The position numbers and the translations under genes were made by a program. Under the pieces are notes generated by a model. It did not search any database, was not told the origin of the DNA, and saw only the letters and a program-made list of their open reading frames with translations. 64,000 bases of DNA from a virus (lineage: Duplodnaviria > Heunggongvirae > Uroviricota > Caudoviricetes), in the IMG/VR virus record IMGVR_UViG_3300009500_000011, positions 104,585-168,584 of that record; one strand, written 5' to 3'. This document shows positions 4,283-49,146 of the stretch, piece after piece; position 1 is the first letter of the stretch, and each line of letters opens with the position of its first letter.

Positions 4283-5812
4283 ATGTTAGATGCCGATTCT
4301 GATTCTCTTTTTGATGTACCTGTGTCACACAATTCTTTATTTTCATCTGTTACTCCAACTCCAAATCCACCCAAAAGTAGTATTTCTAGTTTTAATGAAA
4401 ATAATCCTAATAAAAGTCGTTTGGATAAATTTTTTAAAGGTTTAAGCAAAGAAGAAAAACAAGAATTAAAACGTAAAATTCAAGATGAAGCATATACATT
4501 TACTGATTCTTTGTATTCAATTATTGTTGATATAGCTCGCGGGCAAGGAAAACAAGTAATAGATTATCCTGAACGTTGGTTATTACCAGAAGACCAAAGT
4601 GATGTTGATGAAACATCAATGGCTTCATTAACTAAAAATCTTGTTATCGGGTATACAAAATATATCAATGTTGTTTACTATTTGTCATTTGATTATTTAG
4701 TTCACACGAAATATTCTATCGTTAAAAGTTTTTTAATGAGAGGTGATGAACATAGACCTCCATATAAATCTAAATTTGATATTTCTTTGGATGAACAAAA
4801 AGAAGTTGTTATTCAAGGTATTTTTCACATCATAAATAATGAAAACAAAAATAAACTTCAAGTTGAAGTTACTGATGAAGCTATTATTATTACTGGATTA
4901 AACACGGATAATGAAGCTGAAAAATTTCGTGAAACTTTTGAAGAAGAACTAAAAAATAATGATGTTTTTAAAAATAAAACTTTCACTTTTACAGATAAAT
5001 TATTTCCAAAATTTATTAAACAAAGTGGTGTTGAAAGAGCGGATGTTGTTTTCCCAAAAGAAATTTGGAAAGAAATTGAAATTAATGTTATAAATGTATT
5101 TTTAAAAAATGAACAATATGTCGCCAAAAATATACCTACTAAACGCGGTATTATTTTGGAAGGACCTCCAGGTAATGGAAAATCGTTACTTGTAAAATAT
5201 ATAGAGAATGCTCTTGCTGATAAGGTAACTTTTATTTATGTTACTGATGCTTTAGTTGCAAATCCTAATTCTTTAAGTAAAATATTTGATATTGCTCGTC
5301 GGTATACTCCGTGTGTTCTTGTTTTAGAAGATGTAGATTCTATTGGTTCTTCTAGAGAATACGGAAATCCAAGTATTACTGCTGAACTTCTTTCACGATT
5401 AGATGGTTTGGAAGAATTAGTAGATTTTGTTACTATTGCTACTACAAATTTTCCTGAAAAAATTGATGATGCATTAAAAAATAGACCTAATCGTTTTGAT
5501 AGAAGAATCAAAATTAAATTGCCAAGTCCAGAAAGATGTGCCGAACTTTTAAAAATTTCCCTAAATCATAGAGGCGTTTTAAATATAAAAAATGAAGAAG
5601 TAAATCAAATTAGTGAAAAATTAAATGGGTTTTCAGGGGCACAAATTAAAGAAGTTATTATTACTGCACAGATGATTGCTCTTTATGAAAATAGAGAAGT
5701 TGAATACAAAGATTTAATTCAATCTGTTGAATTTTTAAAAGAAAACTATTATGATGACAAAAATATCGGAGTTGGAGATACTTCTAAGAAAAAAGTAGGA
5801 TTTAGAGGATGA
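4283..5812 (+). CDS. AAA+ ATPase
   Basis: Walker A GPPGNGKS; Walker B VLVLEDVD; sensor/arginine region. Confidence 0.75.
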   Translation: MLDADSDSLFDVPVSHNSLFSSVTPTPNPPKSSISSFNENNPNKSRLDKFFKGLSKEEKQELKRKIQDEAYTFTDSLYSIIVDIARGQGKQVIDYPERWLLPEDQSDVDETSMASLTKNLVIGYTKYINVVYYLSFDYLVHTKYSIVKSFLMRGDEHRPPYKSKFDISLDEQKEVVIQGIFHIINNENKNKLQVEVTDEAIIITGLNTDNEAEKFRETFEEELKNNDVFKNKTFTFTDKLFPKFIKQSGVERADVVFPKEIWKEIEINVINVFLKNEQYVAKNIPTKRGIILEGPPGNGKSLLVKYIENALADKVTFIYVTDALVANPNSLSKIFDIARRYTPCVLVLEDVDSIGSSREYGNPSITAELLSRLDGLEELVDFVTIATTNFPEKIDDALKNRPNRFDRRIKIKLPSPERCAELLKISLNHRGVLNIKNEEVNQISEKLNGFSGAQIKEVIITAQMIALYENREVEYKDLIQSVEFLKENYYDDKNIGVGDTSKKKVGFRG

Positions 5813-11146: not shown

Positions 11147-11659
11147 ATGGATTTTTTAGTTGGCGATATATTAGTTTTAAAACAAGATGCTCTTGACCTT
11201 GAAGATAAAACTGGCAAAACAATTTTATATCCCGCAGGTTCCGAAGCTGAAATTATACAAATAAAAAATGAAAATGAATATCATCTGCAATTTCCAGATG
11301 CCAAAATATGGCCTCATGACTTGGCAACTTTATTGATTTTCTTTAATCGTAAAAAAGATGGTAAAAATGTTTATACTCGCCAGGTTTCAGAGTATGGTAC
11401 GCCACCAAAAGAGCTTGCTTTTTATATACCTAGAGAAGTTGATTGGCGTAAAAACTATAGGTATACTGTCAGAATTGAAGCAGAAGATTGTGGCTTTAAA
11501 AAATTGATTTGTCCTAGTTGTTTCAATGACCTGGGAGAAAATGGCGAACCAGATAATGAAGGTTTGCAAAAATGTCAAAAATGTGGTACAATGGTTCTCC
11601 CGATAGACCCATTAACATTCAAGTATCCACATGATGACGGAAATGAACACACAACTTAA
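11147..11659 (+). CDS. hypothetical protein with C-terminal Cys4 zinc ribbon
   Basis: CPSCF...CQKCG. Confidence 0.5.
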   Translation: MDFLVGDILVLKQDALDLEDKTGKTILYPAGSEAEIIQIKNENEYHLQFPDAKIWPHDLATLLIFFNRKKDGKNVYTRQVSEYGTPPKELAFYIPREVDWRKNYRYTVRIEAEDCGFKKLICPSCFNDLGENGEPDNEGLQKCQKCGTMVLPIDPLTFKYPHDDGNEHTT

Positions 11660-12935
11660 GAGTAATTCTCAAAAATTCTTAGAAGCAGCAAATTGGGCTC
11701 TTGTAAAAGAACGCTTTGGCGAAGATACAGGAGTTAATATTCGTCGCGCTTCTATAGATAATGTGCAAAATATTACGCTTTTCAATGGTTCAAAAGGTTT
11801 ACTTTTTGATGGATATTCGTTTCCTGAACAAGAACATCTTAAAGGCTTGATTGTTCACGAAGTATTAGGAAGCGCACATTCGGTTATAGCGGCATGTTTT
11901 CCTAAATTCTATAACTATGGCGAACCTGCTGAAAAACAAAAGCATCTTGAATACTTAAATGACGATTCTATGAGTGTGTTATTTGCTAAGAAAGAGGATG
12001 GAGTAAATATTCGTCCTTATTTCAATGCTGCAACAAATAGAGTTGAATTTGCTACGCGCGGAACCTTGCTTGTTGTTTCTGATATTGAAGAAACGTCTAA
12101 TCTTGATTATGGCGCAATGGCTCGTTCAATTGCAGAAGAAAAATATCCAATTCTTTTGGATGAGGAATTTGTAAAGAAATACTCTTGTATTTTTGAAATG
12201 ATTCATCCTGATTCCAAAATTCTTACGGATTATGGACAAAGAAAAGACCTTATTCTTCTGTCAGTATTTGATTTAGAAAATAACTGCTATGAATTTTCGC
12301 GTGAATGGGTAGCATCTTGGGCAAATATAATTGGGTTAAATTATGTTGAATATTGGTTTGACCAATATGCGCCTGTTTCTGAATTTTCTTCTTTAGTTGA
12401 AAAACTACTTAAAAAATGGAACGAAACGGATGTAGAAGGTTCTGTTGTTATATTTGTAAACTCTGAAGCAGAACCTGTATATCGTCTTAAAGTTAAAAAT
12501 GCTTATTATTTACAAATGCTTCGACTTGCAAAATTTTGCACTTTGAAGAATTTAGTCTCAATCATGGAAGAAAATAACTTTTCAAATTGGGAACAACTTC
12601 GTGCATATTTGTACGAAAGCCCTTCAATGAATGAAGAATTAGAAATGGCATATAAGGCTCATTTTGATGTATATGAAAATTGGTTAGCAAATCTTGAAAT
12701 CGAAAAACAAAATGTTTTAAAAGAATATCAAGAATTACCTTCTTTCGAATTACAAAAAGATTTTGCTTTATACATCTTAAAAGATGGCGCTTATCCATAC
12801 AATCCGCTATTCTTTGCTATTCGCAAATGGTTAGCAGAAGCCAAAAATCCTAATTTAGAACAATTCTTTGAAGAAAATGTTAAAGCAACAGTAATGTTGA
12901 AGAAAATCTATCCACTATCGGAAGTAGAGGAATAA
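11631..12935 (+). CDS. ATP-dependent RNA ligase, Rnl1 (T4 RnlA)-like
   Basis: nucleotidyltransferase motif I FAKKEDGVNIR (KxDG) at a position comparable to T4 Rnl1; 434 aa. Confidence 0.7.
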   Translation: MMTEMNTQLKSNSQKFLEAANWALVKERFGEDTGVNIRRASIDNVQNITLFNGSKGLLFDGYSFPEQEHLKGLIVHEVLGSAHSVIAACFPKFYNYGEPAEKQKHLEYLNDDSMSVLFAKKEDGVNIRPYFNAATNRVEFATRGTLLVVSDIEETSNLDYGAMARSIAEEKYPILLDEEFVKKYSCIFEMIHPDSKILTDYGQRKDLILLSVFDLENNCYEFSREWVASWANIIGLNYVEYWFDQYAPVSEFSSLVEKLLKKWNETDVEGSVVIFVNSEAEPVYRLKVKNAYYLQMLRLAKFCTLKNLVSIMEENNFSNWEQLRAYLYESPSMNEELEMAYKAHFDVYENWLANLEIEKQNVLKEYQELPSFELQKDFALYILKDGAYPYNPLFFAIRKWLAEAKNPNLEQFFEENVKATVMLKKIYPLSEVEE

Positions 12936-12936
12936 C

Positions 12937-13443
12937 ATGGGTTTATTTGATTATGTAATTTGTGATTATCCTTTACCTGATTCATATAAAGGGAGTATTA
13001 AGTTTACAACTAAAGACTTAAATTCTTTTATGAATACTTTTACTATTACTGAATCAGGTCAACTTTTAGAACACAAATTTCATTTTGAAGAAGTTCCTGA
13101 AGAAGAACGTCCTAAATTTAATACACCCGAATGGAATTCTGATAACGAAACAATTAAAACTTGGACACGCTTAATGGGTTCAAAGATTCAAGTATTTGAT
13201 GGCTTGGAACCCTACCTTTACACAGGTGCTGTTTGTTTTTACGGTTCAAATTTAGATAGTTGTAATTCGGATGGATATTATACTACAGAAAATGATGAAC
13301 CTTATGAATACAAAGAATACATTGCTTTGTTTAAAAATGGTATGTTAATTAACATTATTGAAAATAATGAAAAAGACAATGAATTTTTTACTCCAGAATG
13401 TTTTTTAACACAAAAACAGTATAAAGAAAAATATAATGAATGA
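12937..13443 (+). CDS. hypothetical protein
   Basis: ORF track. Confidence 0.5.
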   Translation: MGLFDYVICDYPLPDSYKGSIKFTTKDLNSFMNTFTITESGQLLEHKFHFEEVPEEERPKFNTPEWNSDNETIKTWTRLMGSKIQVFDGLEPYLYTGAVCFYGSNLDSCNSDGYYTTENDEPYEYKEYIALFKNGMLINIIENNEKDNEFFTPECFLTQKQYKEKYNE

Positions 13444-14197
13444 CTCGCTTGGCGACCGAATGAAAACATATTATGAAGATGTGACGCGGCATTACTTGCC
13501 TCGGCGAACTCATACAATTATTCGGTTAGATGGAAAATCTTTTCATACGTATACAAAAAAATTAGCAAGACCATTTGATGCTGGTTTGATTGAAGATATG
13601 CAAAAAACCACAATTCGACTTTGTGAGAATATTCAGGGCGTTGTTCTTGGTTATACGCAATCTGATGAAATATCTCTTGTTTTATGTGATTATAAAGAAA
13701 AAGAAACTGAATCCTTTTTTAAAGGTAATATTCAAAAAATTTGTTCAGTATCTGCAAGTATGGCTACTGCATTCTTCAATGCTTTTAGACAAGCCCGTAA
13801 TTTTGAAGGTGGTCCAGCATTTTTTGATGCTAGAGTATTTACTATTCCAGAAAAGGTAGAAGTTCTTAATTATCTTATTTGGAGACAAAAAGATGCAACA
13901 AGAAATTCTATTCAAATGGCCGCACAATCTGTTTATTCTCATAAAGAACTTAATAAAAAGAAGTGGTCTGATTTAAATGAAATGCTTTTTCAGAAAGGTA
14001 TTAATTTTAATGATTATTCTTCTTCTGAAAAACGTGGTTCTTTAATTGTGAAAGAATATTTTGAAGGGGAAGCCTATGATAAGCGTAAGCAAGAAAATGT
14101 TATAGTTACTCGGTCGCGTTGGATTGTAGAACCTGAAACACCTCTTTTTACTGCTGAAGAAAATAGAGATTTATTTGAAAGGTATTTATATAAATAA
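13436..14197 (+). CDS. Thg1-like protein (tRNA-His guanylyltransferase family / TLP, 3'-5' nucleotide addition)
   Basis: N-terminal MKTYYEDVTR...IIRLDGKSFHTYTKK...KPFD matches the conserved Thg1 N-terminus (FE...R.DG..FH.F). Confidence 0.75.
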   Translation: MNDSLGDRMKTYYEDVTRHYLPRRTHTIIRLDGKSFHTYTKKLARPFDAGLIEDMQKTTIRLCENIQGVVLGYTQSDEISLVLCDYKEKETESFFKGNIQKICSVSASMATAFFNAFRQARNFEGGPAFFDARVFTIPEKVEVLNYLIWRQKDATRNSIQMAAQSVYSHKELNKKKWSDLNEMLFQKGINFNDYSSSEKRGSLIVKEYFEGEAYDKRKQENVIVTRSRWIVEPETPLFTAEENRDLFERYLYK

Positions 14198-17137: not shown

Positions 17138-17224
17138 GGAAGTATCGCATAGCGGCGATTGCATCTGACTGTAAATCAGACGCGCGAAAGCGCCTCGGAG
17201 GTTCGAGTCCTTCTACTTCCACCA
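17138..17224 (+). tRNA. tRNA-Tyr (anticodon GTA), long variable arm, CCA encoded
   Basis: acceptor ggaagta/tacttcc; loop ctGTAaa; variable arm cgcgcgaaagcgcctc. Confidence 0.75.
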
Positions 17225-17237
17225 TTTTAATAATATT

Positions 17238-17308
17238 TTGAGTTGCGCTAGAATAAAGTTACTTCGTCTGTAAAACGAGGAATCCGGGTTCGAGTCCCGG
17301 TCGGAATC
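17238..17308 (+). ncRNA. tRNA-like / Y-RNA-like element: 5' motif GAGTTGCGCTAGAATAAAGTTACTTC, then anticodon-like hairpin (loop ctGTAaa) and canonical T-arm, but no pairable acceptor stem
   Basis: 5' 26 nt match the triplicated motif upstream of the Ro60 gene (45037, 45278, 45367); T-arm ccgggttcgagtcccgg. Confidence 0.45.
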
Positions 17309-17399
17309 TAACGATTTCGGTACTTTAATCGGTAAAATCCTAAACACTTTGTTCGCTACCTTCGCTCAAAATATTTTAAAAACTTGTTGCCCATAGTAT

Positions 17400-17474
17400 G
17401 CCGAACTAGTATAATGGCTATTACATCTGTTTCGTAATCAGAGAATCTCAGTTCAATTCTGGGGTTCGGCCCCA
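17400..17474 (+). tRNA. tRNA-Thr (anticodon CGT as read), CCA encoded
   Basis: perfect acceptor gccgaac/gttcggc; loop ttCGTaa with U-U at 31:39. Confidence 0.6.
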
Positions 17475-18943: not shown

Positions 18944-18948
18944 ATCAT

Positions 18949-19020
18949 TGGAGTGGTAGCATAGAGGTAATGTACCGTTTTATCGCGAGCGGGATGAAGG
19001 TTCGAGTCCTTCCCCTCCAG
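18949..19020 (+). tRNA. tRNA-like gene with canonical T-arm and acceptor but unresolved anticodon arm (possible pseudo-tRNA or atypical tRNA)
   Basis: acceptor tggagtg/ccctcca (one mismatch); T-arm gaaggttcgagtccttc; no clean 5-bp/7-nt anticodon hairpin found by eye. Confidence 0.35.
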
Positions 19021-19040
19021 TTCTTTTTTAAAAAGAAATC

Positions 19041-25587: not shown

Positions 25588-26253
25588 ATGCCTTTAAAAA
25601 TCGTGTGTATTTCTGATACTCACAATTCATTAAATCAACTTGAACTTAATGGATTAAAAATGCCAGAAGCAGATGTTCTTATACATGCTGGTGATTTAAC
25701 ATTTAAAGGCCAACTTCCAGAAATTTCAAAAGCAAATTATCATTTAGGGAAAATTAAACATAAGTATAAACATGTGGTTTTTGTTCCAGGAAATCATGAT
25801 TTTCTTTTTCAAAAAGATGAAGCAATTGCAAGGGCTGTATTGTCTAATGCAACCGTATTAATTGACCAACCTTTAGAAATTGAAGGTTATAAATTTTACG
25901 GTAGTCCTTGGCAACCCTGGTATCAAGATTGGGCATTTAATTTTAAAAAATATTCAGCAGGAGGAAAAGAACAGTCAATTCGTATTTGGGGAGCTATTCC
26001 TGAAGAGACTGATATTTTAATTACTCATGTCCCGCCATATATGATGATGGATAAAACTGAATATGGTGAAAATATTGGTGATGCTTGGCTTGCTAAACGT
26101 TTGAAAGAACTTCCTAATCTTAAACTTCATGTTTTTGGGCATGTTCATGAAAGATACGGTAAAGTAGAAGCAAAAATTACCTTTGTTAATGCAGCTTCTA
26201 TGAACCGTAGATATAGCATTGTGAATCCACCAATTGTTATAGATTTGCCTTAA
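25588..26253 (+). CDS. calcineurin-like metallophosphoesterase
   Basis: CISDTH; GDLTFKG; GNHD; HVPP; GHVH motif series. Confidence 0.75.
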   Translation: MPLKIVCISDTHNSLNQLELNGLKMPEADVLIHAGDLTFKGQLPEISKANYHLGKIKHKYKHVVFVPGNHDFLFQKDEAIARAVLSNATVLIDQPLEIEGYKFYGSPWQPWYQDWAFNFKKYSAGGKEQSIRIWGAIPEETDILITHVPPYMMMDKTEYGENIGDAWLAKRLKELPNLKLHVFGHVHERYGKVEAKITFVNAASMNRRYSIVNPPIVIDLP

Positions 26254-29682: not shown

Positions 29683-30408
29683 ATGATTAATACATATGTT
29701 GTAGGGGACGTACACGGTTGCTACGATTCTCTAATCGAATTACTAGAATTGGTTAATTTTAATGTTGACCGAGATATGTTAATAAGTGTTGGCGACCTTG
29801 TAGATAAGGGTCCAAAAACCAAGGAAGTTTTAGACTTCTTTATGAAGTATGGTTATCCTGTGGTTAGAGGCAATCATGAAGATAAGATTGCTCGTCTTGC
29901 CAAGGGAAACAAGATTAAGATTAACTCTGAAATTCAAGATACTGTTGAACAACTTGGAGAAGGTTGGCAGGAAACGTATGGCCTATTTCTTCAATCAATG
30001 CCATTATATCTTCCGTTTGAAGATGCTTTGGGTAAGGGATATATTGTCCACGGTGGCGTTGCACCAGACCTTCCTATCGAAAGGCAAAGTTCTAATTTCT
30101 TAATGCGTCTTAGAACGTGGCCTTTTGAAGAATATGTACGTGGGGTAGAGGCAACTCAACCTCCTTGGCAGACTGAATATAGAGGTCACTTAGGAACAAT
30201 ACTTCACGGGCATATTCCAAGTGCAGGCGTAATGTATGCAGGTTCTGAAAAGCATGGAAATCCCAATGTATATTCATTGGATGGTGGATGTGTTTACGGG
30301 AATGACCGTCCTTGGGGCGGTAGTCTTCGGGCTATTAAACTTGATACTAGAGAGATTTTCTCTGTTCCCGGTAATCAAGAACAAACAGAACATTATAACA
30401 GTTTGTGA
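29683..30408 (+). CDS. PPP-family Ser/Thr phosphatase (lambda-PPase / ApaH-like)
   Basis: GDVHG; GDLVDKG; GNHE; HGG motifs. Confidence 0.8.
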   Translation: MINTYVVGDVHGCYDSLIELLELVNFNVDRDMLISVGDLVDKGPKTKEVLDFFMKYGYPVVRGNHEDKIARLAKGNKIKINSEIQDTVEQLGEGWQETYGLFLQSMPLYLPFEDALGKGYIVHGGVAPDLPIERQSSNFLMRLRTWPFEEYVRGVEATQPPWQTEYRGHLGTILHGHIPSAGVMYAGSEKHGNPNVYSLDGGCVYGNDRPWGGSLRAIKLDTREIFSVPGNQEQTEHYNSL

Positions 30409-30888: not shown

Positions 30889-31186
30889 TGATAAGTGCGA
30901 AACATGCGATGGTAAAGGTACATGGGAAGTACCCTGGGATGAAGTTGATGATGCAACCAAGGCTATGCTTGGTGGCATTGATGACTTGATAAGTAAATTT
31001 CCTGGTTCTAAATTGGGTCCATTAGTTTATAATTGTCCTGATTGTCAACAAACTGGTTCGCAAGCCGTTCGAGAACAATGGTCAATAAATCGTTTAGACC
31101 CTAAAAAACATGAGTATGTTTTTCAATGTACTGATGGTGACCCTTGTTGGGAATGTAAAGCAGAGAAAAAAGAGCATTTAAAATGA
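30878..31186 (+). CDS. Cys-rich zinc-binding protein
   Basis: CETCDGKG ... CPDCQ ... CWEC. Confidence 0.5.
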   Translation: MNIDDKCETCDGKGTWEVPWDEVDDATKAMLGGIDDLISKFPGSKLGPLVYNCPDCQQTGSQAVREQWSINRLDPKKHEYVFQCTDGDPCWECKAEKKEHLK

Positions 31187-32001
31187 TTGATTATACAACA
31201 AAACCGGATTTAGGAAAATTATCTGAATCAGAATTTTTTGATTTAGATAATCCGCCTTTTGATATTCAAAAACATTGTTTATATTCAGTCATATCTGGTT
31301 CAAAAGCATATGGATTAGATACGCCTACAAGCGATACTGATATTCGTGGAGTTGTATATTTACCAGAAAGAATGTTGCTTGGTTTAGGTAGATTTGAACA
31401 AATTGAAAATCAAAGCAAAGATATTTGTTATTACAGTCTACAAAAACTTTTTAATTTGGCATTAAAAAATAATGTTCATGCAATGGAAATGCTTTGGATG
31501 CCAAAAAGAACGGTTAACTTTATACATCCTTTATTTGAGCAAGTTCTAGATAATAAAAATTTATTTATGTCTAAACGCATTGCATATACTTGTGGTGGAT
31601 ATGCTTTCCAACAAGTTAAGGTTGCCTTTACAAAGATGAAAAATAAGACTGGTAGAGTTAGTTTATTAGAACAATTTGGCTATGATACTAAATTTATGAG
31701 TCATAGTATTCGTATTTATAGAATGGCCCGTGAAGCATTAGAAACAGGTTTTCTAAATGTCTATCGACCTGATAGAGAGTTTTTACTTGATGTTAAGGTT
31801 GGTAAATATAAACTTGAAGATATTGTTGTTATGGGTAAAAATTCAGAAGGTAAAGATACTTTTGTTGGTGGATTATTAGCAGAAGAATTGCGACTTTTTA
31901 ATGAAGCACTTGCAAAAACAAAATTACCAACCGACCCTCCTTTCCAAAAAATTGAAAATCTTTTAATTAAAGTTCAAAAAGAAGCTTTATCTTTTAATTA
32001 A
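31183..32001 (+). CDS. Pol-beta superfamily nucleotidyltransferase
   Basis: GSKAYGLDTPTSDTDIRGV (GS...DxD catalytic signature). Confidence 0.55.
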   Translation: MIDYTTKPDLGKLSESEFFDLDNPPFDIQKHCLYSVISGSKAYGLDTPTSDTDIRGVVYLPERMLLGLGRFEQIENQSKDICYYSLQKLFNLALKNNVHAMEMLWMPKRTVNFIHPLFEQVLDNKNLFMSKRIAYTCGGYAFQQVKVAFTKMKNKTGRVSLLEQFGYDTKFMSHSIRIYRMAREALETGFLNVYRPDREFLLDVKVGKYKLEDIVVMGKNSEGKDTFVGGLLAEELRLFNEALAKTKLPTDPPFQKIENLLIKVQKEALSFN

Positions 32002-44500: not shown

Positions 44501-44878
44501 TTATTTGATGAATACTCATTTACTGATGAACTTATTGGGACAAGTTTGTTAGAAAGATTTTCTCAGGACATATTACAAACAGCCGATGAAGTTGCTCGTT
44601 TAGTAAATAATAATAGAAGTGTAGAAGAAATTTTTGAATTCTTAGATATTGCTTCGCGTAAACCAGTATTTAAAATTGGTCAAAGAGTTAAATTCAGATA
44701 TAATGGTGCCTTATGTCAAGGTAAAATTATTTTAAGATATTATGCAACAAATCCTAGTGAAGGCATTAGATATCAAGTTAATGTTGATTTTTGTAGTAAT
44801 TGGAAAGCAATTGGAAAAACAACACGAATTGATGTAGATTTAAATGATTTATTATCAATTAATCCTCAGAATTGGTAA
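41543..44878 (+). CDS. giant tandem-repeat protein (~50 copies of a ~21-aa unit) with C-terminal PQNW domain
   Basis: repeating ...SDxFxFxDSLxRxxxxxRxxx... units across >1000 aa; unique C-terminal 80 aa shared with ORF 35895. Confidence 0.6.
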   Translation: MSLLLLYNRKLFQSTLTNSNLTSDSNSRKTYFSRTNVDSSLFSDSSARSANYNRASSDIFNLSDSLLRNTFYARSFQEIYSFFDSLNRQVDNSRSESEIFSTIDIQNLSRFYNRSSTDSFNFSDSNSRFLDFARLQSDVLIFNDLINRSTNVNRSITDQSIEIDSLTRQIIDNRQTSDVFNTILSFTEQQFLSRSTTDGLSSFTDSSSYSRVLPRSVMDTFSFSDSNSISQLLLRTFSESYSFNDVLSNSGTHIAFLSDVLTNFVDSISAEQFVSRTMSDNLTTLDLVTSVKTFYRLNSDNTNFADAISSANILNRFNIQNLNFNDSLNNQNIFNRNNSDLVNNFNDSTLISQFLNRTSNEVFSTSDILSLAQFLSRNPTDILTTLDNNGRNIFISKSVIDSILTFDSLQSTKIANLNLQETFSFSDVLLRNIIDFRTNSDSFAFVDFVNNYNIFTKSIVESFQTNDLLTREYISNQNLQENFNFLDILSESQFLQRQCSEQFNFIDGILREVIINRAMNETLLESDDITTALVFFRNINEQFSTAASVSYVHSFVRNLLENFATSNSISRALISPRNTSDFFNQIVDTLNSYKIANFNLDETFAFNDSLSQMSLVFRNFSDLFSFFDFTTSNAIIPRNIEESYPISDSLSNNNLFSRLFEEEFNFTDAVNISQSLARQFLDSFIFFDNVSTNSSGGLFLRVISDVLNTNDSSEINQFLNRENTDTSLTSDSLQNSNILNRQFQDLLSIADTLTSTNEFNRFFSDLLQTNDAANSNYVYNSNLSDNLNTSDSLNRFFLNIANLAETFTTTDSNSRESILARSLSETFSLLDLLTRVLSKVRLLNDNLPFTFDSLATYSTFFRELQEEYISSEELINESIYKRQLENTFTTLDELMRVLLIAREVFEVGEISDTVASKAVILRFVEEFFELVDNIALNQRINRSSEYQSNFSDILNREVILERFLSDSSQFFDNSLLQKVGARFFVNLFDEYSFTDELIGTSLLERFSQDILQTADEVARLVNNNRSVEEIFEFLDIASRKPVFKIGQRVKFRYNGALCQGKIILRYYATNPSEGIRYQVNVDFCSNWKAIGKTTRIDVDLNDLLSINPQNW

Positions 44879-44904
44879 CTTTACAGTTTCTTTACATAGC
44901 ATTG

Positions 44905-44933
44905 TTGCAAATATTGGTATGCTTGTCTATAAT
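44905..44933 (+). promoter_or_regulatory. sigma70 promoter TTGCAA-17-TATAAT
   Basis: ttgcaa atattggtatgcttgtc tataat at the start of the ORF-free region. Confidence 0.6.
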
Positions 44934-45036
44934 CTCTAATAGAGTTGAAGCTGAAGGAAACGAAGCAGGTGGTTTAAATGCCATCGGAAGCAAGTGCAAG
45001 TCTTGCCATCTCTGCCATAAAAAACTAAATAAATTT

Positions 45037-45078
45037 GAGTTGCGTTAGAGTACGGTTACTTCTTAATTGACATATACC
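45037..45078 (+). repeat. motif copy R1 GAGTTGCGTTAGAGTACGGTTACTTCTTA
   Basis: aligned by eye with 45278, 45367 and 17238. Confidence 0.5.
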
Positions 45079-45277
45079 TAATGTCCCACCTCAATAAAGG
45101 AGTAAAATCTTTTATTGGGCTAGTCACCTGAGTCGTGGTGAGACGCATTGTGCAAATGTTAGTGGAGGCTCGTAAAATAAGCCTAGAACTAAAAATTCTT
45201 AGACTTAAGATGTAAAAATCAAAAGTCGGTCCCGTACTTGCCCTCTTCTCTCAAATTTATTTTAAAAATTAAAAACT

Positions 45278-45312
45278 TGGGTTGCGACAGATTACAGATA
45301 CTTCTTATATGG
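45278..45312 (+). repeat. motif copy R2 GGGTTGCGACAGATTACAGATACTTCTTA
   Basis: shares TTGCG...TA.A...(A/G)(A/T)TACTTCTT with R1/R3. Confidence 0.5.
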
Positions 45313-45366
45313 AATAAAAAAGCTGTATTCGCTACCTTCTCCCGAGTATAAATTTTATAATATTTA

Positions 45367-45440
45367 AATTGCGTTAATTACAGATACTTCTTGTATATTG
45401 GTTCGAGTCCATTAAGTGTAGTCGGTACACAACTGTAGTT
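45367..45440 (+). repeat. motif copy R3 AATTGCGTTAATTACAGATACTTCTTG followed by T-arm mimic and 3' complement (aattacag / ctgtagtt)
   Basis: 5' aattacag pairs with 3' ctgtagtt (8 bp, one G-U) enclosing ggttcgagtcc. Confidence 0.5.
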
Positions 45441-45465
45441 GTTCCATTCGTTTAAATTTTATTTA

Positions 45466-45499
45466 ATCCTTGGGAATATATTTCTCAAGGATTTTTTTG
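45466..45499 (+). terminator. intrinsic terminator
   Basis: atccttgggaatatatttctcaaggattttttt. Confidence 0.65.
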
Positions 45500-45519
45500 T
45501 TGTCATAAAGGAAAAAAGA

Positions 45520-47205
45520 ATGAAATACAATACTAAAACAGTAAATGCTGGTCCAGGAACAAAAATGATAAATCTTGCAGGCGGAGAAGCTTTTAAAGTT
45601 GATAATCGTACTGCATTATATTTAACTTCTGCAACTTCTTTAGGTGGCGGTCAAGGAAATAAATATTATGTTTCTGCAAATCAAGAATACAAAAATATTC
45701 TTGAACTAATTGAAAAGGTTTCCGCTCAAGACCCAGAATTTATTTTCCAATTGGCTGCATATTGTCGTCAAGATTTATACCTTCGTAGTATTCCAACGGT
45801 ATTATTTATCGAAGGTATTCGTGCAATGCATAAGCAAAAAAAGGCCAATGCACCATATCCAGTAGATGCATCTAAGTATGCAAATGCTATTTTTGGTCGT
45901 GCTGATGAAATTGTTGAAGCAGTTGCATATTGGCTTGGAGTTGAAGGCCATCACAAATTGCCTTCCCCTCTTCGTAAATCTTTGACCATTGCTTTAAATT
46001 CATTTGATGAATACCGCTTGCTTAAATATAATCAAGAAGATAAGCAAGTTACATTTAAAGATATTGTTCGTCTTGTGCATCCAGAACCAAAAACTGATGT
46101 GCAAAGTGCAATTTTCAAATACTTCATCAAGGATGAAATCAGTCCAGAATTAATGCCAAAGGCAACTGCCCGCAAGGCTTTGCTTTCACGTACTCAATTT
46201 GATGAAGAAGCACAACGCTTGATGAGAGATTCATCTGCTACTTGGGAAACTGTAATTGCTAAATTCGGTTCGACTAAAGAAATTTGGGAAGCAGTTATTC
46301 CAAATATGGGATACATGGCTTTATTACGTAATCTTAATAATTTTCTTAAAAAAGAAGTAGATTTAGATTTAGTAATTCCTCGCCTTGTGAATCCGCAAGA
46401 AATTCGTAAAAGCAAGCAATTGCCTTTCCGTTTTTACACAGCAATGAAACAACTTGGTGTAGAAGATAACAATAAGAATTCTACGATGACATATTATGGA
46501 TATTCCGATTCAGTAAAAACAGCATTTGAAAAATGGCGTAATGTAAATTCTAGCGATGGAATTTCTCGTTTACGTAATGCTCTTGGTGTTGCTATGAATA
46601 TTGCAGTAGAAAATGTTCCTCACCTTTCAGGTCGTACCGTTGTTGCGGCAGACCTTTCTGGTTCTATGAGTCAACCTCTTAATAACAAATCAAATGTAAC
46701 TTATCGTGAAATCGCTTGTATTATGGCTGGTATTGCTGGTTCAATAGCACCAGATAATGTAATTTGTGGATTTGGTTGTTCATTTGCTGTTGCTAAAAAA
46801 GGCAAAGATATTCTTGAAACTGCAAATAATATTGATAAATTAAATGTTGGAATGTCAACGGATGCATGGCGTATTCTTGATTACTTGCTTACAAACAAAA
46901 TTTTTGTAGATAGAGTCATGTATTTTACAGATACACAATGTTATAATTCATATGGGGGCGCAAATTTAAACGAACTTTGGAAAAAATACAAAGTTCTTTG
47001 CCAATCAACTGGTAAAAAAGTTCCTGTTCTTTATGAAGTAAATCTTGCAGGTGGTAATACATCTAGTTTTAATTCTGAACAAAGAGTTGCTACCATTGGT
47101 GGATGGTCTGAAAGAATTTTTGATTTAATTACTACTTATGAAACTGACCCTCGTCAAGCAATAAGTAAAATTAAAGAAAAATATTCAGATTTAGTATCTG
47201 TTTAA
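45520..47205 (+). CDS. rsr: Ro60 (Rsr) ortholog: TROVE module + C-terminal vWA domain
   Basis: GGGQGNKYYVS, FQLAAYCRQD, ALLRNLNNF, LPFRFYTAMKQL and vWA MIDAS VVAADLSGSMSQ align with conserved Ro60 blocks; ATG 45520 with RBS AAAGGAAAAAAGAATG (track start 45439 is upstream read-through). Confidence 0.8.
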   Translation: MKYNTKTVNAGPGTKMINLAGGEAFKVDNRTALYLTSATSLGGGQGNKYYVSANQEYKNILELIEKVSAQDPEFIFQLAAYCRQDLYLRSIPTVLFIEGIRAMHKQKKANAPYPVDASKYANAIFGRADEIVEAVAYWLGVEGHHKLPSPLRKSLTIALNSFDEYRLLKYNQEDKQVTFKDIVRLVHPEPKTDVQSAIFKYFIKDEISPELMPKATARKALLSRTQFDEEAQRLMRDSSATWETVIAKFGSTKEIWEAVIPNMGYMALLRNLNNFLKKEVDLDLVIPRLVNPQEIRKSKQLPFRFYTAMKQLGVEDNNKNSTMTYYGYSDSVKTAFEKWRNVNSSDGISRLRNALGVAMNIAVENVPHLSGRTVVAADLSGSMSQPLNNKSNVTYREIACIMAGIAGSIAPDNVICGFGCSFAVAKKGKDILETANNIDKLNVGMSTDAWRILDYLLTNKIFVDRVMYFTDTQCYNSYGGANLNELWKKYKVLCQSTGKKVPVLYEVNLAGGNTSSFNSEQRVATIGGWSERIFDLITTYETDPRQAISKIKEKYSDLVSV

Positions 47206-48495: not shown

Positions 48496-49146
48496 ATGGA
48501 AACTCAAAAAACCTTCTTTACTAGTGATAATCACTTCAATCATGAGAATATAATTAAATTTTGTTTTCGTGGTTATGGTTCTTATGAAGAAAGAAAAAAT
48601 AACCCAGAACTTCATTTCAAATCAATAGGTGAAATGAATGAAATTATGGTTCAACGTTGGAATGAAGTGGTTGGACCAACCGATACTGTATATGTACTCG
48701 GTGATTTTGCTATGGGTGATAAATATAAGTCTGTTGAATATTTTAATAGGCTAAATGGAACAAAACATCTAGTTCTTGGAAATCATGATTGTAGTAACTT
48801 TGTCAAAAAAGAAGTTCACCCTGCAATCCTTGAAATGGGTTTTGCTTCAATTACTGAAGAACTATACGCAAAAATAGATGGTCGAAATGTATGGATGGCT
48901 CACATTCCATATGGTCATAATAATGATAAACGTAACTATCTTCGTGAAAAAGTTAAGCCAGGTTTTTCTCTTAAAAAAGATGTTATTCTAAGTGGCCATG
49001 TACATGATAAATGGATTATAAATAATCATAATTCCATTAATGTGGGAACAGATGTTTGGGATTTTTACCCTCAAACCTTGTCTCAACTTCTGGAAAAAAC
49101 AAAAGACCTTCCTCGTTTTGATTCTTCAATATTTCTTCCTGTTTAA
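48496..49146 (+). CDS. calcineurin-like binuclear metallophosphoesterase
   Basis: TSDNHFNH; LGDFAMGD; GNHD; GHVH. Confidence 0.7.
   Translation: METQKTFFTSDNHFNHENIIKFCFRGYGSYEERKNNPELHFKSIGEMNEIMVQRWNEVVGPTDTVYVLGDFAMGDKYKSVEYFNRLNGTKHLVLGNHDCSNFVKKEVHPAILEMGFASITEELYAKIDGRNVWMAHIPYGHNNDKRNYLREKVKPGFSLKKDVILSGHVHDKWIINNHNSINVGTDVWDFYPQTLSQLLEKTKDLPRFDSSIFLPV

What the first reader, a model, noticed from the sequence alone, without database searches (positions are those of the whole stretch)
44880..47205. Ro60 (Rsr) ortholog preceded by a 600-nt non-coding locus with triplicated motif and T-arm mimic: candidate phage Y RNAs
CDS 45520..47205 carries the conserved Ro60 TROVE blocks plus a C-terminal vWA MIDAS (DLSGSMSQ). 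Bacterial and phage Ro60 genes are typically flanked by Y RNAs that they bind, and some Y RNAs contain tRNA-like domains. The 640 bp directly upstream has no ORF. It has a TTGCAA-17-TATAAT promoter (44905), an intrinsic terminator (45466-45499) just before the Ro60 RBS, and three copies of a ~27-nt motif (45037, 45278, 45367; TTGCG..TA.A....TACTTCTT). The third copy sits in a module whose 5' end (aattacag) can pair with its 3' end (ctgtagtt) around a T-arm mimic (tattggttcgagtccatta). That is the architecture of YrlA-type Y RNAs.
Basis: partly seen in the sequence, partly recalled or inferred. Interest (0 to 1): 0.8.

Follow-up and report, generated by a model that had tools for sequence, protein, structure and literature searches.

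The report
Phage Ro60 gene with Y-RNA array
A large uncultivated phage carries a Ro60 RNA-binding protein gene preceded by a small operon of three structured non-coding "Y RNA"-like modules plus a tRNA-shaped leader, a divergent example of a known protein-RNA partnership rather than a new kind of system.

Summary
CDS 45520-47205 is a Ro60 (TROVE plus vWA with a DLSGS MIDAS motif). The 641 bp upstream is non-coding. It contains a promoter-like site, a tRNA-shaped element with an encoded CCA, three modules and an intrinsic terminator.

In 16 short modules from related Ro60 loci, all 13 stem pairs show compensatory changes (87.5% paired against 58.8% shuffled). A covariance model built from them finds four modules in the 64 kb window. 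Three lie upstream of Ro60. The fourth, a complete YrlA-type module at 17232-17375, sits inside the tRNA array and ARAGORN had called part of it tRNA-Tyr.

The same model hits 33 of 79 more distant viral Ro60 loci. All 52 hits are on the Ro60 strand.

Module 3 has T- and D-arm mimics but no acceptor-like hairpin. Its GNCGAA motif is diverged, and Rfam YrlA does not score it.

Verdict: these are candidate Y RNAs of a known kind in a variant architecture. Expression and Ro60 binding are inferred, not shown.

The parts
44905..44933 (+). Sigma-70-type promoter-like site: TTGCAA, 17-nt spacer, TATAAT. The predicted start is near 44940-44941, at the first base of the tRNA-like element.
   Evidence: Consensus scan. 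It is identical in L001. A promoter scoring at least 10 of 12 lies at the equivalent position, just 5' of the first module, in L004, L005, L006, L008, L010, L014, L015 and L018.
44941..45017 (+). tRNA-shaped leader with an encoded 3' CCA. It is probably not a decoding tRNA: the anticodon loop is 8 nt and the T loop is UGCAAGU.
   Evidence: Rfam tRNA scores 32.0 bits against a gathering score of 29. ARAGORN does not call it. The minimum-free-energy fold is a cloverleaf, z -0.4. Against L001 it is the least conserved part of the locus (85.9%). The changes sit in loops, or keep or restore stem pairs, and the anticodon loop is 9 nt in L001.
45028..45261 (+). Module 1, a large Y-RNA-like module. 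The 5' arm is 45028-45062 (basal strand AAUAAAUUUGAG, then UUGCGUUAGA, GUACGG, UUACUUC). A 166-nt multi-hairpin apical domain spans 45063-45228. The 3' arm is 45229-45261 (CCGUAC, UUGCCCUCUUCUC, UCAAAUUUAUU).
   Evidence: A 12-bp basal stem and a 6-bp upper stem join the two arms. The fold has z -4.44, with 0 of 200 shuffles as stable. The R1 model hits its 5' arm at 29 bits. Relatives carry large-insert modules of the same design, but the inserts are not alignable beyond L001.
45275..45347 (+). Module 2, a minimal 73-nt Y-RNA-like hairpin. It has a basal stem (ACUUGGG/CCCGAGU), an internal loop (5' UUGCGACA, 3' GCUACCUUCU), an upper stem, and an apical loop carrying AUACUUCUU and an A-run.
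   Evidence: The fold reproduces the consensus structure. It is a member of alignment A1, where all 13 pairs show compensatory changes. R1 scores it 76.2 bits, but it was a training sequence.
45362..45457 (+). Module 3, a Y-RNA-like stem carrying a truncated tRNA-like domain. Its parts are: basal stem 45362-45368 with 45451-45457; upper stem 45376-45383 with 45433-45440; small hairpin 45384-45396; T-arm mimic 45397-45413; D-arm mimic 45416-45430. There is no acceptor-like hairpin.
   Evidence: R1 scores it 31.0 bits, E 4.8e-6, and it was not in the training set. The minimum-free-energy fold shows all of these elements, z -1.36. It is 96.9% identical to L001. Rfam YrlA gives no hit at E up to 10.
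45465..45500 (+). Intrinsic terminator: a 12-bp stem, 5-nt loop and T-run. It ends 19 nt before the Ro60 start codon.
   Evidence: Scans. One terminator follows the last module in every related locus that has a complete upstream region.
45520..47205 (+). Ro60 (Rsr) ortholog of 561 aa: TROVE ring plus a vWA domain with the MIDAS motif DLSGS. The RBS is AAAGGA at about 45507-45512.
   Evidence: Pfam matches, translation, solved Ro60 relatives, 202 phage records with homologs and 929 database homologs.
17232..17375 (+). Fourth module, a complete YrlA-type Y-RNA-like RNA inside the tRNA array. It lies between tRNA-Tyr (17138-17224) and tRNA-Thr (17400-17474). Its parts are: V hairpin 17263-17281; T arm 17284-17300; acceptor-like hairpin 17301-17320; D region 17321-17338. 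It has the same 5' and 3' arm motifs as the other modules.
   Evidence: R1 scores it 50.6 bits, E 1.5e-11, and it was not in the training set. The fold is a four-way junction, z -3.74. ARAGORN called 17242-17308 tRNA-Tyr, but Rfam tRNA gives only 24.8 bits, below its gathering score. It is close in sequence to the last module before Ro60 in L004 and L014.

Best explanation
The 641-bp interval is a small non-coding RNA operon that supplies the phage Ro60 protein with its Y RNA partners.

**Shown by sequence and comparison**
- One promoter-like site (44905-44933) precedes the array.
- Next comes a tRNA-shaped leader with CCA (44941-45017).
- Three tandem modules follow (45028-45261, 45275-45347, 45362-45457), then an intrinsic terminator (45465-45500).
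- Each module is a long stem made from its own 5' and 3' ends. It has a variable, covarying basal helix, a conserved asymmetric internal loop or mini-helix (5' UUGC(G)-N-YAG, 3' UCGC-Y-N-CCUUCUC), and a covarying upper helix capped by the conserved (A/U)UACUUC block.
- Only the apical part differs between modules. Module 2 has a short A-rich loop. Module 3 has a T-loop/D-loop "elbow". Module 1 has a 166-nt multi-hairpin domain.
- A fourth, complete YrlA-type module lies in the tRNA array at 17232-17375.

**Inferred**
- The primary transcript is cut into individual RNAs by host tRNA-processing and other RNases. The modules abut tRNAs or tRNA-like elements, here and in Arthrobacter phage Atuin.
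- Phage Ro60 binds the conserved bulged stem. This stem occupies the position of the GNCGAA(N)G / GGUCCGA Ro60-binding site of known Y RNAs.
- The different apical domains act as adaptors or gates. They would couple Ro60 to different partners, such as host PNPase (as in the Deinococcus and phiLo Ro60-Y RNA-PNPase complexes) or tRNA-recognising enzymes.
- The genome is rich in tRNA and RNA-repair genes (32 tRNAs, Rnl1-like ligase, Thg1-like enzyme, RlaP). In that setting the likely role is surveillance or turnover of structured RNAs during infection.
- No promoter lies between the terminator and the Ro60 start codon. Ro60 is therefore probably translated from terminator read-through, which would keep the Y RNAs in excess over the protein.
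For: **Ro60 identity:**

**Motif above chance:** 4 matches against 0.28 expected.

**Conserved organisation.** A gene-free stretch of 560-1180 nt lies upstream of Ro60 in every related contig that has upstream sequence. Each is a tandem array of 2-8 modules of the same design.

**Covariation:**
- Alignment A1 (MAFFT, 16 short modules): 13 of 13 pairs carry double-sided changes. 87.5% of cells are paired against 58.8% shuffled. The covariation score is 0.80 against 0.24, 0 of 500 shuffles reach it, and slid controls stay at or below 0.27.
- Alignment A6 (34 model hits): 93.7% paired.
- Alignment A5 (18 distant hits): 94% paired.

**Specificity of the R1 model:**
- In the 64-kb window it gives only the four modules at E < 1e-4.
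- In the clade loci it gives 31 hits, all upstream of Ro60 and on its strand.
- In 79 IMG/VR Ro60 loci it gives 52 hits in 33 loci, all on the Ro60 strand.
- In 674 kb of unrelated viral loci it gives no hit at E <= 0.001.

**Link to known Y RNAs:**
- Relatives give Rfam YrlA hits with significant E-values: L014 at 43.5 bits, L010 at 36.7, L008 at 30.7.
- Distant R1 hits carry GUAGUGAAG or UUGCGAAGG, that is the CGAA motif, at the position of UUGCG-YAG.
- The UUAC of the conserved block matches the YUAY feature described for YrlA (PMC4201824).
- In YrlA-type modules the acceptor-like hairpin between the T and D arms covaries: 6 of 6 pairs, 90.9% paired.

**Independent transcription unit.** Promoter, modules and terminator are arranged this way in all nine complete relatives. 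Five of them have a second promoter for Ro60.

**Precedent.** Y RNAs are encoded next to Ro60 in 254 bacteria and 22 phages (PMC4201824). Thermus phage phiLo Ro60 binds two upstream Y-RNA-like RNAs and host PNPase (PMC12135203).

**RNA-repair context:**
Against: - There are no expression data. Transcript ends, processing and Ro60 binding are all inferred.
- Rfam YrlA (RF02553) gives no hit on the Ro60-upstream region, even in a 641-nt search at E <= 10. It gives only 15.5 bits on the 17.2-kb module.
- The canonical GNCGAAN0-1G motif is not strictly present in any of the four window modules.
- Single-sequence fold z-scores of modules 2 and 3 are unremarkable, at -1.1 and -1.4.
- Alignments A5 and A6 were fitted to the model, which inflates the percentage of cells paired. 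A1 and A2 were not fitted.
- R1 E-values come from a shortened calibration.
- R1 does not find the experimentally tested phiLo Yrl1/Yrl2 upstream of that Ro60. It gives only a weak downstream hit.
- The promoter count in the region is not above the shuffle expectation.
Confidence: 0.8

Rival explanations
1. The array is a cis-acting leader (5' UTR) of the Ro60 mRNA. It would control Ro60 synthesis by attenuation or autoregulation, with Ro60 binding its own leader, rather than yield free trans-acting RNAs.
For: In the window, L001, L004, L015 and L018 no promoter was found between the terminator and Ro60, so Ro60 must be read through from the array promoter. In the window and L001 the terminator ends 19 nt before the start codon.
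Against: Five relatives (L005, L006, L008, L010, L014) have a strong second promoter (10-12 of 12 matches) between the terminator and Ro60, so there the array is a separate unit. Modules also occur downstream of Ro60 (and Atuin). One lies 28 kb away inside a tRNA array in this window. Known Y RNAs are likewise co-transcribed with rsr and then processed, as in M. smegmatis (PMC4201824). Co-transcription therefore does not argue against trans action.
Confidence: 0.07
2. The modules are tRNA-associated RNAs whose partner is not Ro60. They might be processing punctuation, or decoys for tRNA-targeting host nucleases or tRNA enzymes. On this view they sit near Ro60 only because Ro60 genes themselves lie in phage tRNA arrays.
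For: In many viral loci Ro60 is embedded in tRNA arrays: 106 tRNAs in 20 loci. Modules abut tRNAs in Atuin, ending 1 nt before tRNA-Trp and tRNA-Thr. One window module sits between two tRNAs. Several modules carry tRNA elbow mimics.
Against: L004, L005, L008, L014 and L015 have no tRNA called anywhere in the fetched locus, yet carry 4-6 modules directly upstream of Ro60. The window has 32 tRNAs but only one module among them, against three at Ro60. Short modules have no tRNA-like part at all yet keep the conserved bulged stem. That stem occupies the position of the known Ro60-binding motif.
Confidence: 0.1
3. The repeats are decaying tRNA-derived or mobile repeat sequences with no present function.
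For: ARAGORN and Rfam tRNA partly recognise the 17.2-kb module and the leader. The leader is the fastest-evolving part of the locus.
Against: Both helices keep pairing through many compensatory changes, across Ro60 divergence down to about 26% identity. Against L001 the arms are 97% conserved while the spacers are 70-92%. All hits share the Ro60 strand.
Confidence: 0.03

Closest known systems
YrlA-type bacterial and phage Y RNAs (Chen et al. 2014, PMC4201824; Rfam RF02553)
   Same: - Encoded on the Ro60 strand next to the gene.
- 5' and 3' ends form a long stem. A conserved 5'-strand motif sits at the position of GNCGAA(N)G and pairs with a 3' UCGC block, followed by a pyrimidine-rich 3' tail. 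The Rfam consensus ...GucGccgucuu compares with ...GUCGCCUCCUUCUC here.
- A YUAY block (UUAC/AUAC) is present.
- T-arm and D-arm mimics occur in permuted order (T first, then D).
- In the 17.2-kb module and most relatives, an acceptor-like hairpin lies between the T and D arms.
   Different: - The Ro60-site motif is diverged: UGCG(A/U)(C/U)AG instead of GNCGAANG.
- An extra covarying basal helix closes the stem beyond the pyrimidine-rich block.
- Module 3 lacks the acceptor-like hairpin and the V arm.
- No window module reaches even E = 1 against RF02553, whose gathering score is 69 bits.
- Arrays hold 3 modules here and up to 8 in relatives.
- One module lies 28 kb from Ro60.
YrlB and other short Y RNAs without a full tRNA-like domain (Salmonella, M. 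smegmatis; PMC4201824)
   Same: Module 2 is a short stem-loop with the Ro60-site motif and no tRNA-like domain. It lies in tandem with a YrlA-type RNA upstream of Ro60, plausibly processed from one precursor as in M. smegmatis.
   Different: There is no sequence similarity to YrlB beyond the motif position. The closed basal stem and the conserved CCUUCUC loop are specific to this group.
Thermus phage phiLo Ro60 with Yrl1/Yrl2 (PMC12135203; PDB 9KOP, 9L5Y)
   Same: It is the closest solved Ro60 (E 8e-34). Its Y-RNA-like RNAs are encoded upstream of the phage Ro60 gene and were shown to bind Ro60 and host PNPase. This is the best experimental precedent for the proposed mechanism.
   Different: phiLo has two RNAs, defined by a CGAA motif. 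The R1 model does not detect them upstream of phiLo Ro60. No tRNA-like leader is described there.
Metazoan Y RNAs (Ro60 bound to a bulged helix; Xenopus structure 1YVP)
   Same: The overall logic matches. A terminal stem with a conserved bulged helix serves as the Ro60 site, and a variable distal loop specifies partners.
   Different: There is no sequence homology (GGUCCGA/UUGACU against UUGCG-YAG/UCGC). Transcription is by bacterial-type promoter and terminator rather than Pol III. tRNA mimicry is absent in metazoan Y RNAs.

Membership tests
Ro60 / TROVE protein family | TROVE (HEAT-repeat ring) domain | tested here: met
   Pfam PF05731, E 3.5e-32, 112.6 bits against a cut-off of 23. phmmer against solved Ro60 structures 9KOP/9L5Y gives E 8e-34. 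It also matches 2NVO and 1YVP.
Ro60 / TROVE protein family | C-terminal vWA domain with a MIDAS motif (DxSxS) | tested here: met
   The translation contains AADLSGSMSQ. Pfam vWA_Ro60 scores 27.4 bits, just under its 27.7-bit cut-off. Close homologs carry PF25045.
Y RNA (general) | 5' and 3' ends pair into a long stem containing a conserved bulged helix, the Ro60 site | tested here: met
   The basal and upper helices flank a conserved internal loop. All 13 pairs covary in A1. A6 and A5 give the same result.
Y RNA (general) | Encoded next to Ro60 on the same strand | tested here: met
   Modules 1-3 end 63-492 nt upstream of the Ro60 start codon, on the + strand. Of the model hits, 31 of 31 in the clade and 52 of 52 in IMG/VR lie on the Ro60 strand. 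The fourth module (17232-17375) is 28 kb away, on the same strand.
Y RNA (general) | Physically bound by Ro60 and accumulates as a discrete small RNA | not testable with these tools
   This needs EMSA, RIP, Northern blotting or RNA-seq.
YrlA (Chen 2014; Rfam RF02553) | GNCGAAN0-1G motif near the 5' end | tested here: not met
   The window modules read UGCGUUAG, UGCGACAG, UGCGUUAA and UGCGCUAG. That is 2-4 mismatches to the motif. More distant R1 hits at the same position do read GCGAAG or GUGAAG. I therefore read the window motif as a diverged homolog, not a match.
YrlA (Chen 2014; Rfam RF02553) | Conserved T and D stem-loops resembling tRNA arms, T before D | tested here: met
   In module 3 the T arm is 45397-45413 (loop UUCGAGU, one U-U mismatch in the stem) and the D arm is 45416-45430 (loop AGUCGGU). 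In the 17.2-kb module the T arm is 17284-17300, and the D region 17321-17338 is weaker. Modules 1 and 2 have neither.
YrlA (Chen 2014; Rfam RF02553) | Acceptor-like (AS) hairpin between the T and D arms | tested here: not met
   In module 3 only 2 nt separate the T and D arms. L004 module 1 is likewise AS-less. The feature is met in the 17.2-kb module (17301-17320, 8 bp) and covaries in relatives (6 of 6 pairs).
YrlA (Chen 2014; Rfam RF02553) | Conserved YUAY at the start of the V region | tested here: met
   UUAC or AUAC within the (A/U)UACUUC block is invariant or nearly so in A1 and A2.
YrlA (Chen 2014; Rfam RF02553) | Score at or above the Rfam gathering threshold (69 bits) | tested here: not met
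   There is no hit in 44879-45519 at E <= 10. The 17.2-kb module gets a 15.5-bit partial hit. Relatives reach 26-43.5 bits. None of 20 IMG/VR Ro60 loci reaches the gathering score.
tRNA (for element 44941-45017) | Cloverleaf scoring above the Rfam tRNA gathering score | tested here: met
   32.0 bits against 29. The minimum-free-energy fold is a cloverleaf. CCA is encoded at 45015-45017.
tRNA (for element 44941-45017) | 7-nt anticodon loop and a canonical T loop (U54-U55-C56-R57-A58), conserved between close relatives | tested here: not met
   The anticodon loop is 8 nt here and 9 nt in L001. The T loop is UGCAAGU here and CGUGAGU in L001. ARAGORN does not call it.

The most novel reading that the evidence does not exclude
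This reading has three parts.

1. Tandem Y-RNA arrays (3 modules here, up to 8 in relatives) form a modular adaptor set. One conserved Ro60-docking stem is fused to interchangeable apical heads. The heads seen are a bare loop, a tRNA elbow without acceptor stem, a full tRNA mimic and a roughly 170-nt structured domain. One phage Ro60 would thereby be directed to several different host or phage RNA-processing partners during infection.
2. The modules are matured by the tRNA-processing machinery. They are punctuated by tRNAs or by a tRNA-shaped leader carrying CCA.
3. The subfamily is widespread in tRNA-rich phages. It occurs in 33 of 79 viral Ro60 loci and in Arthrobacter phage Atuin, and current Rfam thresholds do not detect it.
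Probability: 0.3. Interest if true: 0.55.

Novelty: new variant of a known kind. Interest (0 to 1): 0.4.

Why it matters
Ro60-Y RNA complexes are conserved from bacteria to humans, yet their function is understood in only a few organisms. Phage versions have only just begun to be studied biochemically (phiLo, 2025).

This locus and its relatives provide three things:
- **A sequence and structure definition.** It describes a Ro60-associated stem that curated models miss at their thresholds, and it gives concrete nucleotides to mutate.
- **A natural series of apical domains.** The same docking stem is fused to different heads, so the adaptor or gating model of Y RNA function can be tested directly.
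- **Better annotation.** At least one false tRNA call (17242-17308) and several probably spurious ORF calls in related contigs are explained by these RNAs.

It does not reveal a new principle. A phage Ro60 gene with adjacent Y RNAs, one of them mimicking tRNA, has been described since 2014.

Tried and rejected
- **Rfam YrlA and Y_RNA on the window.** No hit appeared in three searches, including a 641-nt search with permissive filters. Membership could therefore not be shown directly. The weak His_leader hit is simply the terminator.
- **blastn of the locus against 50,697 phage genomes.** No match.
- **Single-protein scan of IMG/VR.** No relative was found. The scan succeeded only with a protein alignment.
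- **Loose DNA pattern in IMG/VR** (TTGC-N12-13-TACTTC-N15-45-GGTTCRA). None of the 80 loci returned had an R1 hit at E <= 0.001, so these were taken as chance matches. I used them as a negative control.
- **Aligning the large apical inserts** of module-1-type modules across loci. There is no conserved sequence beyond L001, so no structure or function could be assigned.
- **The leader as a suppressor or frameshift tRNA** (loop contains UUA, 8 nt). Rejected, because loop length and sequence differ in the 94%-identical relative and the T loop is non-canonical.
- **The motif as a promoter** (TTGCGT ... TACTTC). Rejected, because the spacing is wrong and the motif pairs with a 3' partner.
- **R1 on Thermus phage phiLo**, to tie the model to the experimentally tested Yrl1/Yrl2. 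It gave only a weak downstream hit (18.4 bits), so no direct link was made.
- **The Annual Review on bacterial Ro60** (PMC10870794) was not held in the library.


Full report
**1. What is at the coordinates**

The + strand ORF with ATG at 45520 (stop at 47205) encodes a 561-aa protein.
- It matches Pfam TROVE (E 3.5e-32) and, just under the cut-off, the Ro60 vWA domain.
- Its translation contains the MIDAS motif in AADLSGSMSQ.
- Its best solved relatives are the Ro60 of Thermus phage phiLo (9KOP/9L5Y, E 8e-34), D. radiodurans Rsr and Xenopus Ro60.
- Homologs occur in 202 deposited phage genomes, none above 30% identity.

The upstream gene ends at 44878, and no ORF longer than 58 aa lies in 44879-45519. 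Compared with a 94%-identical relative (L001), this interval carries 11 scattered indel columns, which fits non-coding DNA.

The promoter-like TTGCAA-17-TATAAT (44905-44933) and the terminator (45465-45493 plus a T-run) are both present.

The window is phage-like and rich in RNA-related genes:
- 32 tRNA calls;
- primase, ribonucleotide reductase and PhoH;
- an Rnl1-type RNA ligase, a Thg1-like enzyme, RlaP and several metallophosphoesterases.

**2. The triplicated motif is real and is one arm of a two-armed structure**

TTGC-N12-13-TACTTC occurs four times in 64 kb against 0.28 expected, and 0 of 100 shuffles reach four. The sites are 45040, 45282, 45369 and, unexpectedly, 17243.

Reading the sequences of relatives showed that each copy is followed by a second conserved block, UCGC-Y-N-CCUUCUC. 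The distance to that block ranges from about 25 to about 230 nt. The bases just outside the two blocks are complementary, with 5-12 contiguous pairs in most modules.

Each module is therefore built as follows:
- a basal helix;
- a conserved internal loop (5' UUGC(G)NYA, 3' GC-YNCCUUCU), within which GC can pair with GC;
- an upper helix;
- an apical part that begins with (A/U)UACUUC.

In the window:
- Module 1 spans 45028-45261 and has a 166-nt apical domain. Its fold has z -4.4.
- Module 2 spans 45275-45347 and is a bare hairpin.
- Module 3 spans 45362-45457.

A further 7-bp basal helix (45362-45368 with 45451-45457) closes that module.

**3. Comparative evidence**

A protein search found a clade of Ro60 proteins 49-94% identical to this one, all from metagenomes.

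*Organisation of the related loci*
- I fetched eleven lineages. One (L003) has only 57 nt of sequence upstream of Ro60.
- The other ten all carry a gene-free stretch of several hundred nt, up to 1180, upstream of Ro60.
- These stretches are tandem arrays of two to eight modules of the same design.

*Covariation*
- A MAFFT alignment of 16 short modules gave an RNAalifold structure of 6 + 7 pairs. Every pair shows compensatory changes.
- 87.5% of cells pair against 58.8% after shuffling. The covariation score is 0.80 against 0.24, and 0 of 500 shuffles reach it. Sliding the partner by 1-3 columns drops the score to 0.27 or below.

*The covariance model R1*
- In the window it finds exactly four significant matches. 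These are module 2 (a training sequence), the 17.2-kb module (50.6 bits, E 1.5e-11), module 3 (31 bits, E 4.8e-6) and the 5' arm of module 1.
- In the clade loci it finds 31 matches, all upstream of Ro60 on its strand.
- It finds none at E <= 0.001 in 674 kb of unrelated viral DNA.

*More distant viral Ro60 loci*
- Across 79 loci (Ro60 identity 25-53%) it finds 52 matches in 33 loci. All are on the Ro60 strand, just upstream or downstream of the gene.
- In those distant hits the helices again pair in 94% of cells, with extensive compensation. That alignment was fitted to the model.

*Cultured phages*
- Arthrobacter phage Atuin has two unannotated modules flanking its Ro60. Each ends one base before a tRNA.

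**4. Relation to known Y RNAs**

Chen et al. (PMC4201824) defined YrlA by these features:
- a 5' GNCGAAN0-1G motif, the likely Ro60 site;
- nearly invariant T and D stem-loops;
- an acceptor-like hairpin between them;
- a V region beginning YUAY;
- a location within 4 kb of Ro60 on the same strand.

They reported such RNAs in 254 bacteria and 22 phages. phiLo Ro60 has since been shown to bind two upstream Y-RNA-like RNAs and host PNPase (PMC12135203).

*Evidence that these modules are homologs.* Relatives give Rfam YrlA hits with significant E-values but sub-threshold scores (L014 at 43.5 bits, L010 at 36.7, L008 at 30.7). Distant R1 hits read GUAGUGAAG or UUGCGAAGG where the window reads UUGCG-YAG. 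The window motif therefore occupies the position of the CGAA motif. The Rfam consensus pairs ggCga with ucGcc and ends in a pyrimidine tail, as UUGCGA/UCGCC...CCUUCUC does here. The UUAC of the conserved block is the YUAY feature. In the YrlA-type modules of this clade the order is V, T arm, acceptor-like hairpin, D arm, and the acceptor-like hairpin covaries (6 of 6 pairs, 90.9% paired).

*Evidence that they differ from the curated family.* The window modules do not meet the GNCGAA motif strictly. Module 3 has T and D arms but only 2 nt between them, so it has no acceptor-like hairpin. Rfam YrlA does not score the Ro60-upstream region at all. None of 20 viral Ro60 loci reaches the Rfam gathering score. 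I conclude that these are homologs of YrlA/YrlB-type Y RNAs in a divergent subfamily, not members by the curated test.

**5. The fourth module**

Module 17232-17375 lies between tRNA-Tyr and tRNA-Thr in the tRNA array.
- It has the full set of elements: 12-bp basal helix, both motifs, V hairpin, T arm (CCGGG-UUCGAGU-CCCGG), 8-bp acceptor-like hairpin and D region.
- It folds as a four-way junction with z -3.7.
- ARAGORN called part of it a 67-nt tRNA-Tyr. Rfam tRNA gives 24.8 bits, below its gathering score.
- It closely resembles the last module before Ro60 in L004 and L014.

**6. The tRNA-shaped leader**

Element 44941-45014 scores 32 bits against Rfam tRNA (gathering score 29) and is followed by CCA. 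It starts where the promoter predicts initiation.
- Its anticodon loop is 8 nt here and 9 nt in L001.
- Its T loop is non-canonical and differs between the two genomes.
- It is the least conserved part of the locus (85.9%). Its stem changes keep or restore pairing.

I read it as a structural tRNA mimic, perhaps a processing handle, and not a decoding tRNA. L004 and L018 also have a tRNA or tRNA-like gene inside their arrays.

**7. Transcription units**

All nine relatives with a complete upstream region show the same layout. A strong promoter sits just 5' of the first module, and one terminator follows the last.
- Five relatives have a second promoter (10-12 of 12 matches) between the terminator and Ro60. 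In those, the array is an independent unit.
- The window, L001, L004, L015 and L018 have none. Ro60 here probably depends on terminator read-through. This is an inference.

**8. Mechanism proposed**

*Shown:* the conserved docking stem, the variable heads, linkage to Ro60, and the promoter-terminator framing.

*Inferred:* processing into discrete RNAs by tRNA-processing and other RNases; binding of Ro60 to the bulged stem; and use of the heads to tether or gate Ro60 towards partners such as PNPase or tRNA-recognising enzymes. The setting is a phage that invests heavily in tRNAs and RNA repair.

**9. Rival explanations**

The rivals considered are a cis-acting leader, a non-Ro60 partner tied to tRNA arrays, and decaying repeats. 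They are weighed in their own section. Each is disfavoured by at least one of the following:
- the second promoters in five relatives;
- tRNA-free loci that still carry 4-6 modules at Ro60;
- the covariation.

**10. Verdict**

The kind of system is known. This is a divergent, multi-module variant with:
- an elbow-only tRNA mimic;
- a large module of unknown head function;
- a tRNA-shaped leader;
- a dispersed copy in the tRNA array.

Interest is moderate.

Noticed in passing
window 17242-17308: ARAGORN calls a 67-nt tRNA-Tyr(gta) here. It is in fact the 5' arm, V hairpin and T arm of a Y-RNA-like module (17232-17375). Rfam tRNA scores it 24.8 bits, below its gathering score.
   Followed up: yes
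window 18948-19021: ARAGORN reports a tRNA of undetermined identity with a 4-base anticodon (atcg). Rfam tRNA scores it only 35.2 bits. It could be a tRNA with an 8-nt anticodon loop, or another tRNA-like element.
   Followed up: no
window 11631-12935, 13436-14197, 31183-32001, 25588-26253, 29683-30408, 48496-49146: The window encodes an RNA-repair or tRNA-maintenance toolkit. It comprises a T4 Rnl1-type RNA ligase, a Thg1-like tRNA-His guanylyltransferase / 3'-5' polymerase, RlaP and three metallophosphoesterases, alongside 32 tRNAs. The nearby genes conserved with Ro60 in relatives include Metallophos_2, Peptidase_C1 and, in L004 and L017, an RNA ligase.
   Followed up: partly
window 45500-45519: No promoter-like site lies between the array terminator and the Ro60 start codon, and only 19 nt separate them. 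Five related loci have a strong second promoter at that position. Ro60 expression here may depend on terminator read-through.
   Followed up: partly
L010 6685-6761 and 6763-6837: A related phage contig carries two adjacent tRNAs with anticodon CUA (amber suppressors; ARAGORN labels them Pyl). This hints at stop-codon reassignment or suppression in that lineage. No suppressor tRNA was called in the window.
   Followed up: no
L010 603-875 and 914-1114; L004 3079-3591 (-); L005 3209-3415 (-): The gene calls recorded for these contigs overlap the Y-RNA module arrays. They have no Pfam hit and are probably spurious ORFs over structured RNA.
   Followed up: partly
L219 (Arthrobacter phage Atuin, OK040794.2) 2438-2511 and 4740-4816: Two unannotated R1-type modules flank the annotated Ro-like gene of a cultured phage. 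Each ends one base before a tRNA (tRNA-Trp and tRNA-Thr). This suggests that RNase P cleavage of the tRNA defines the Y RNA 3' end.
   Followed up: partly
L139-L217 (IMG/VR Ro60 loci): In many viral contigs the Ro60 gene is embedded in a tRNA array. There are 106 tRNAs in 20 loci, all on the Ro60 strand, and none of these loci has an Rfam YrlA hit at the gathering score.
   Followed up: partly
L001 9078-9695: The closest relative carries a TnpB / IS605 OrfB-like gene (Cas12f1-like TNB domain) about 3.4 kb downstream of Ro60, after two tRNAs.
   Followed up: no
window 45063-45228: The 166-nt apical domain of module 1 folds into about six hairpins (z -4.4 for the whole module). It has no Rfam match and no alignable counterpart beyond the nearest relative. 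One compensatory change against L001 falls in its longest hairpin.
   Followed up: partly
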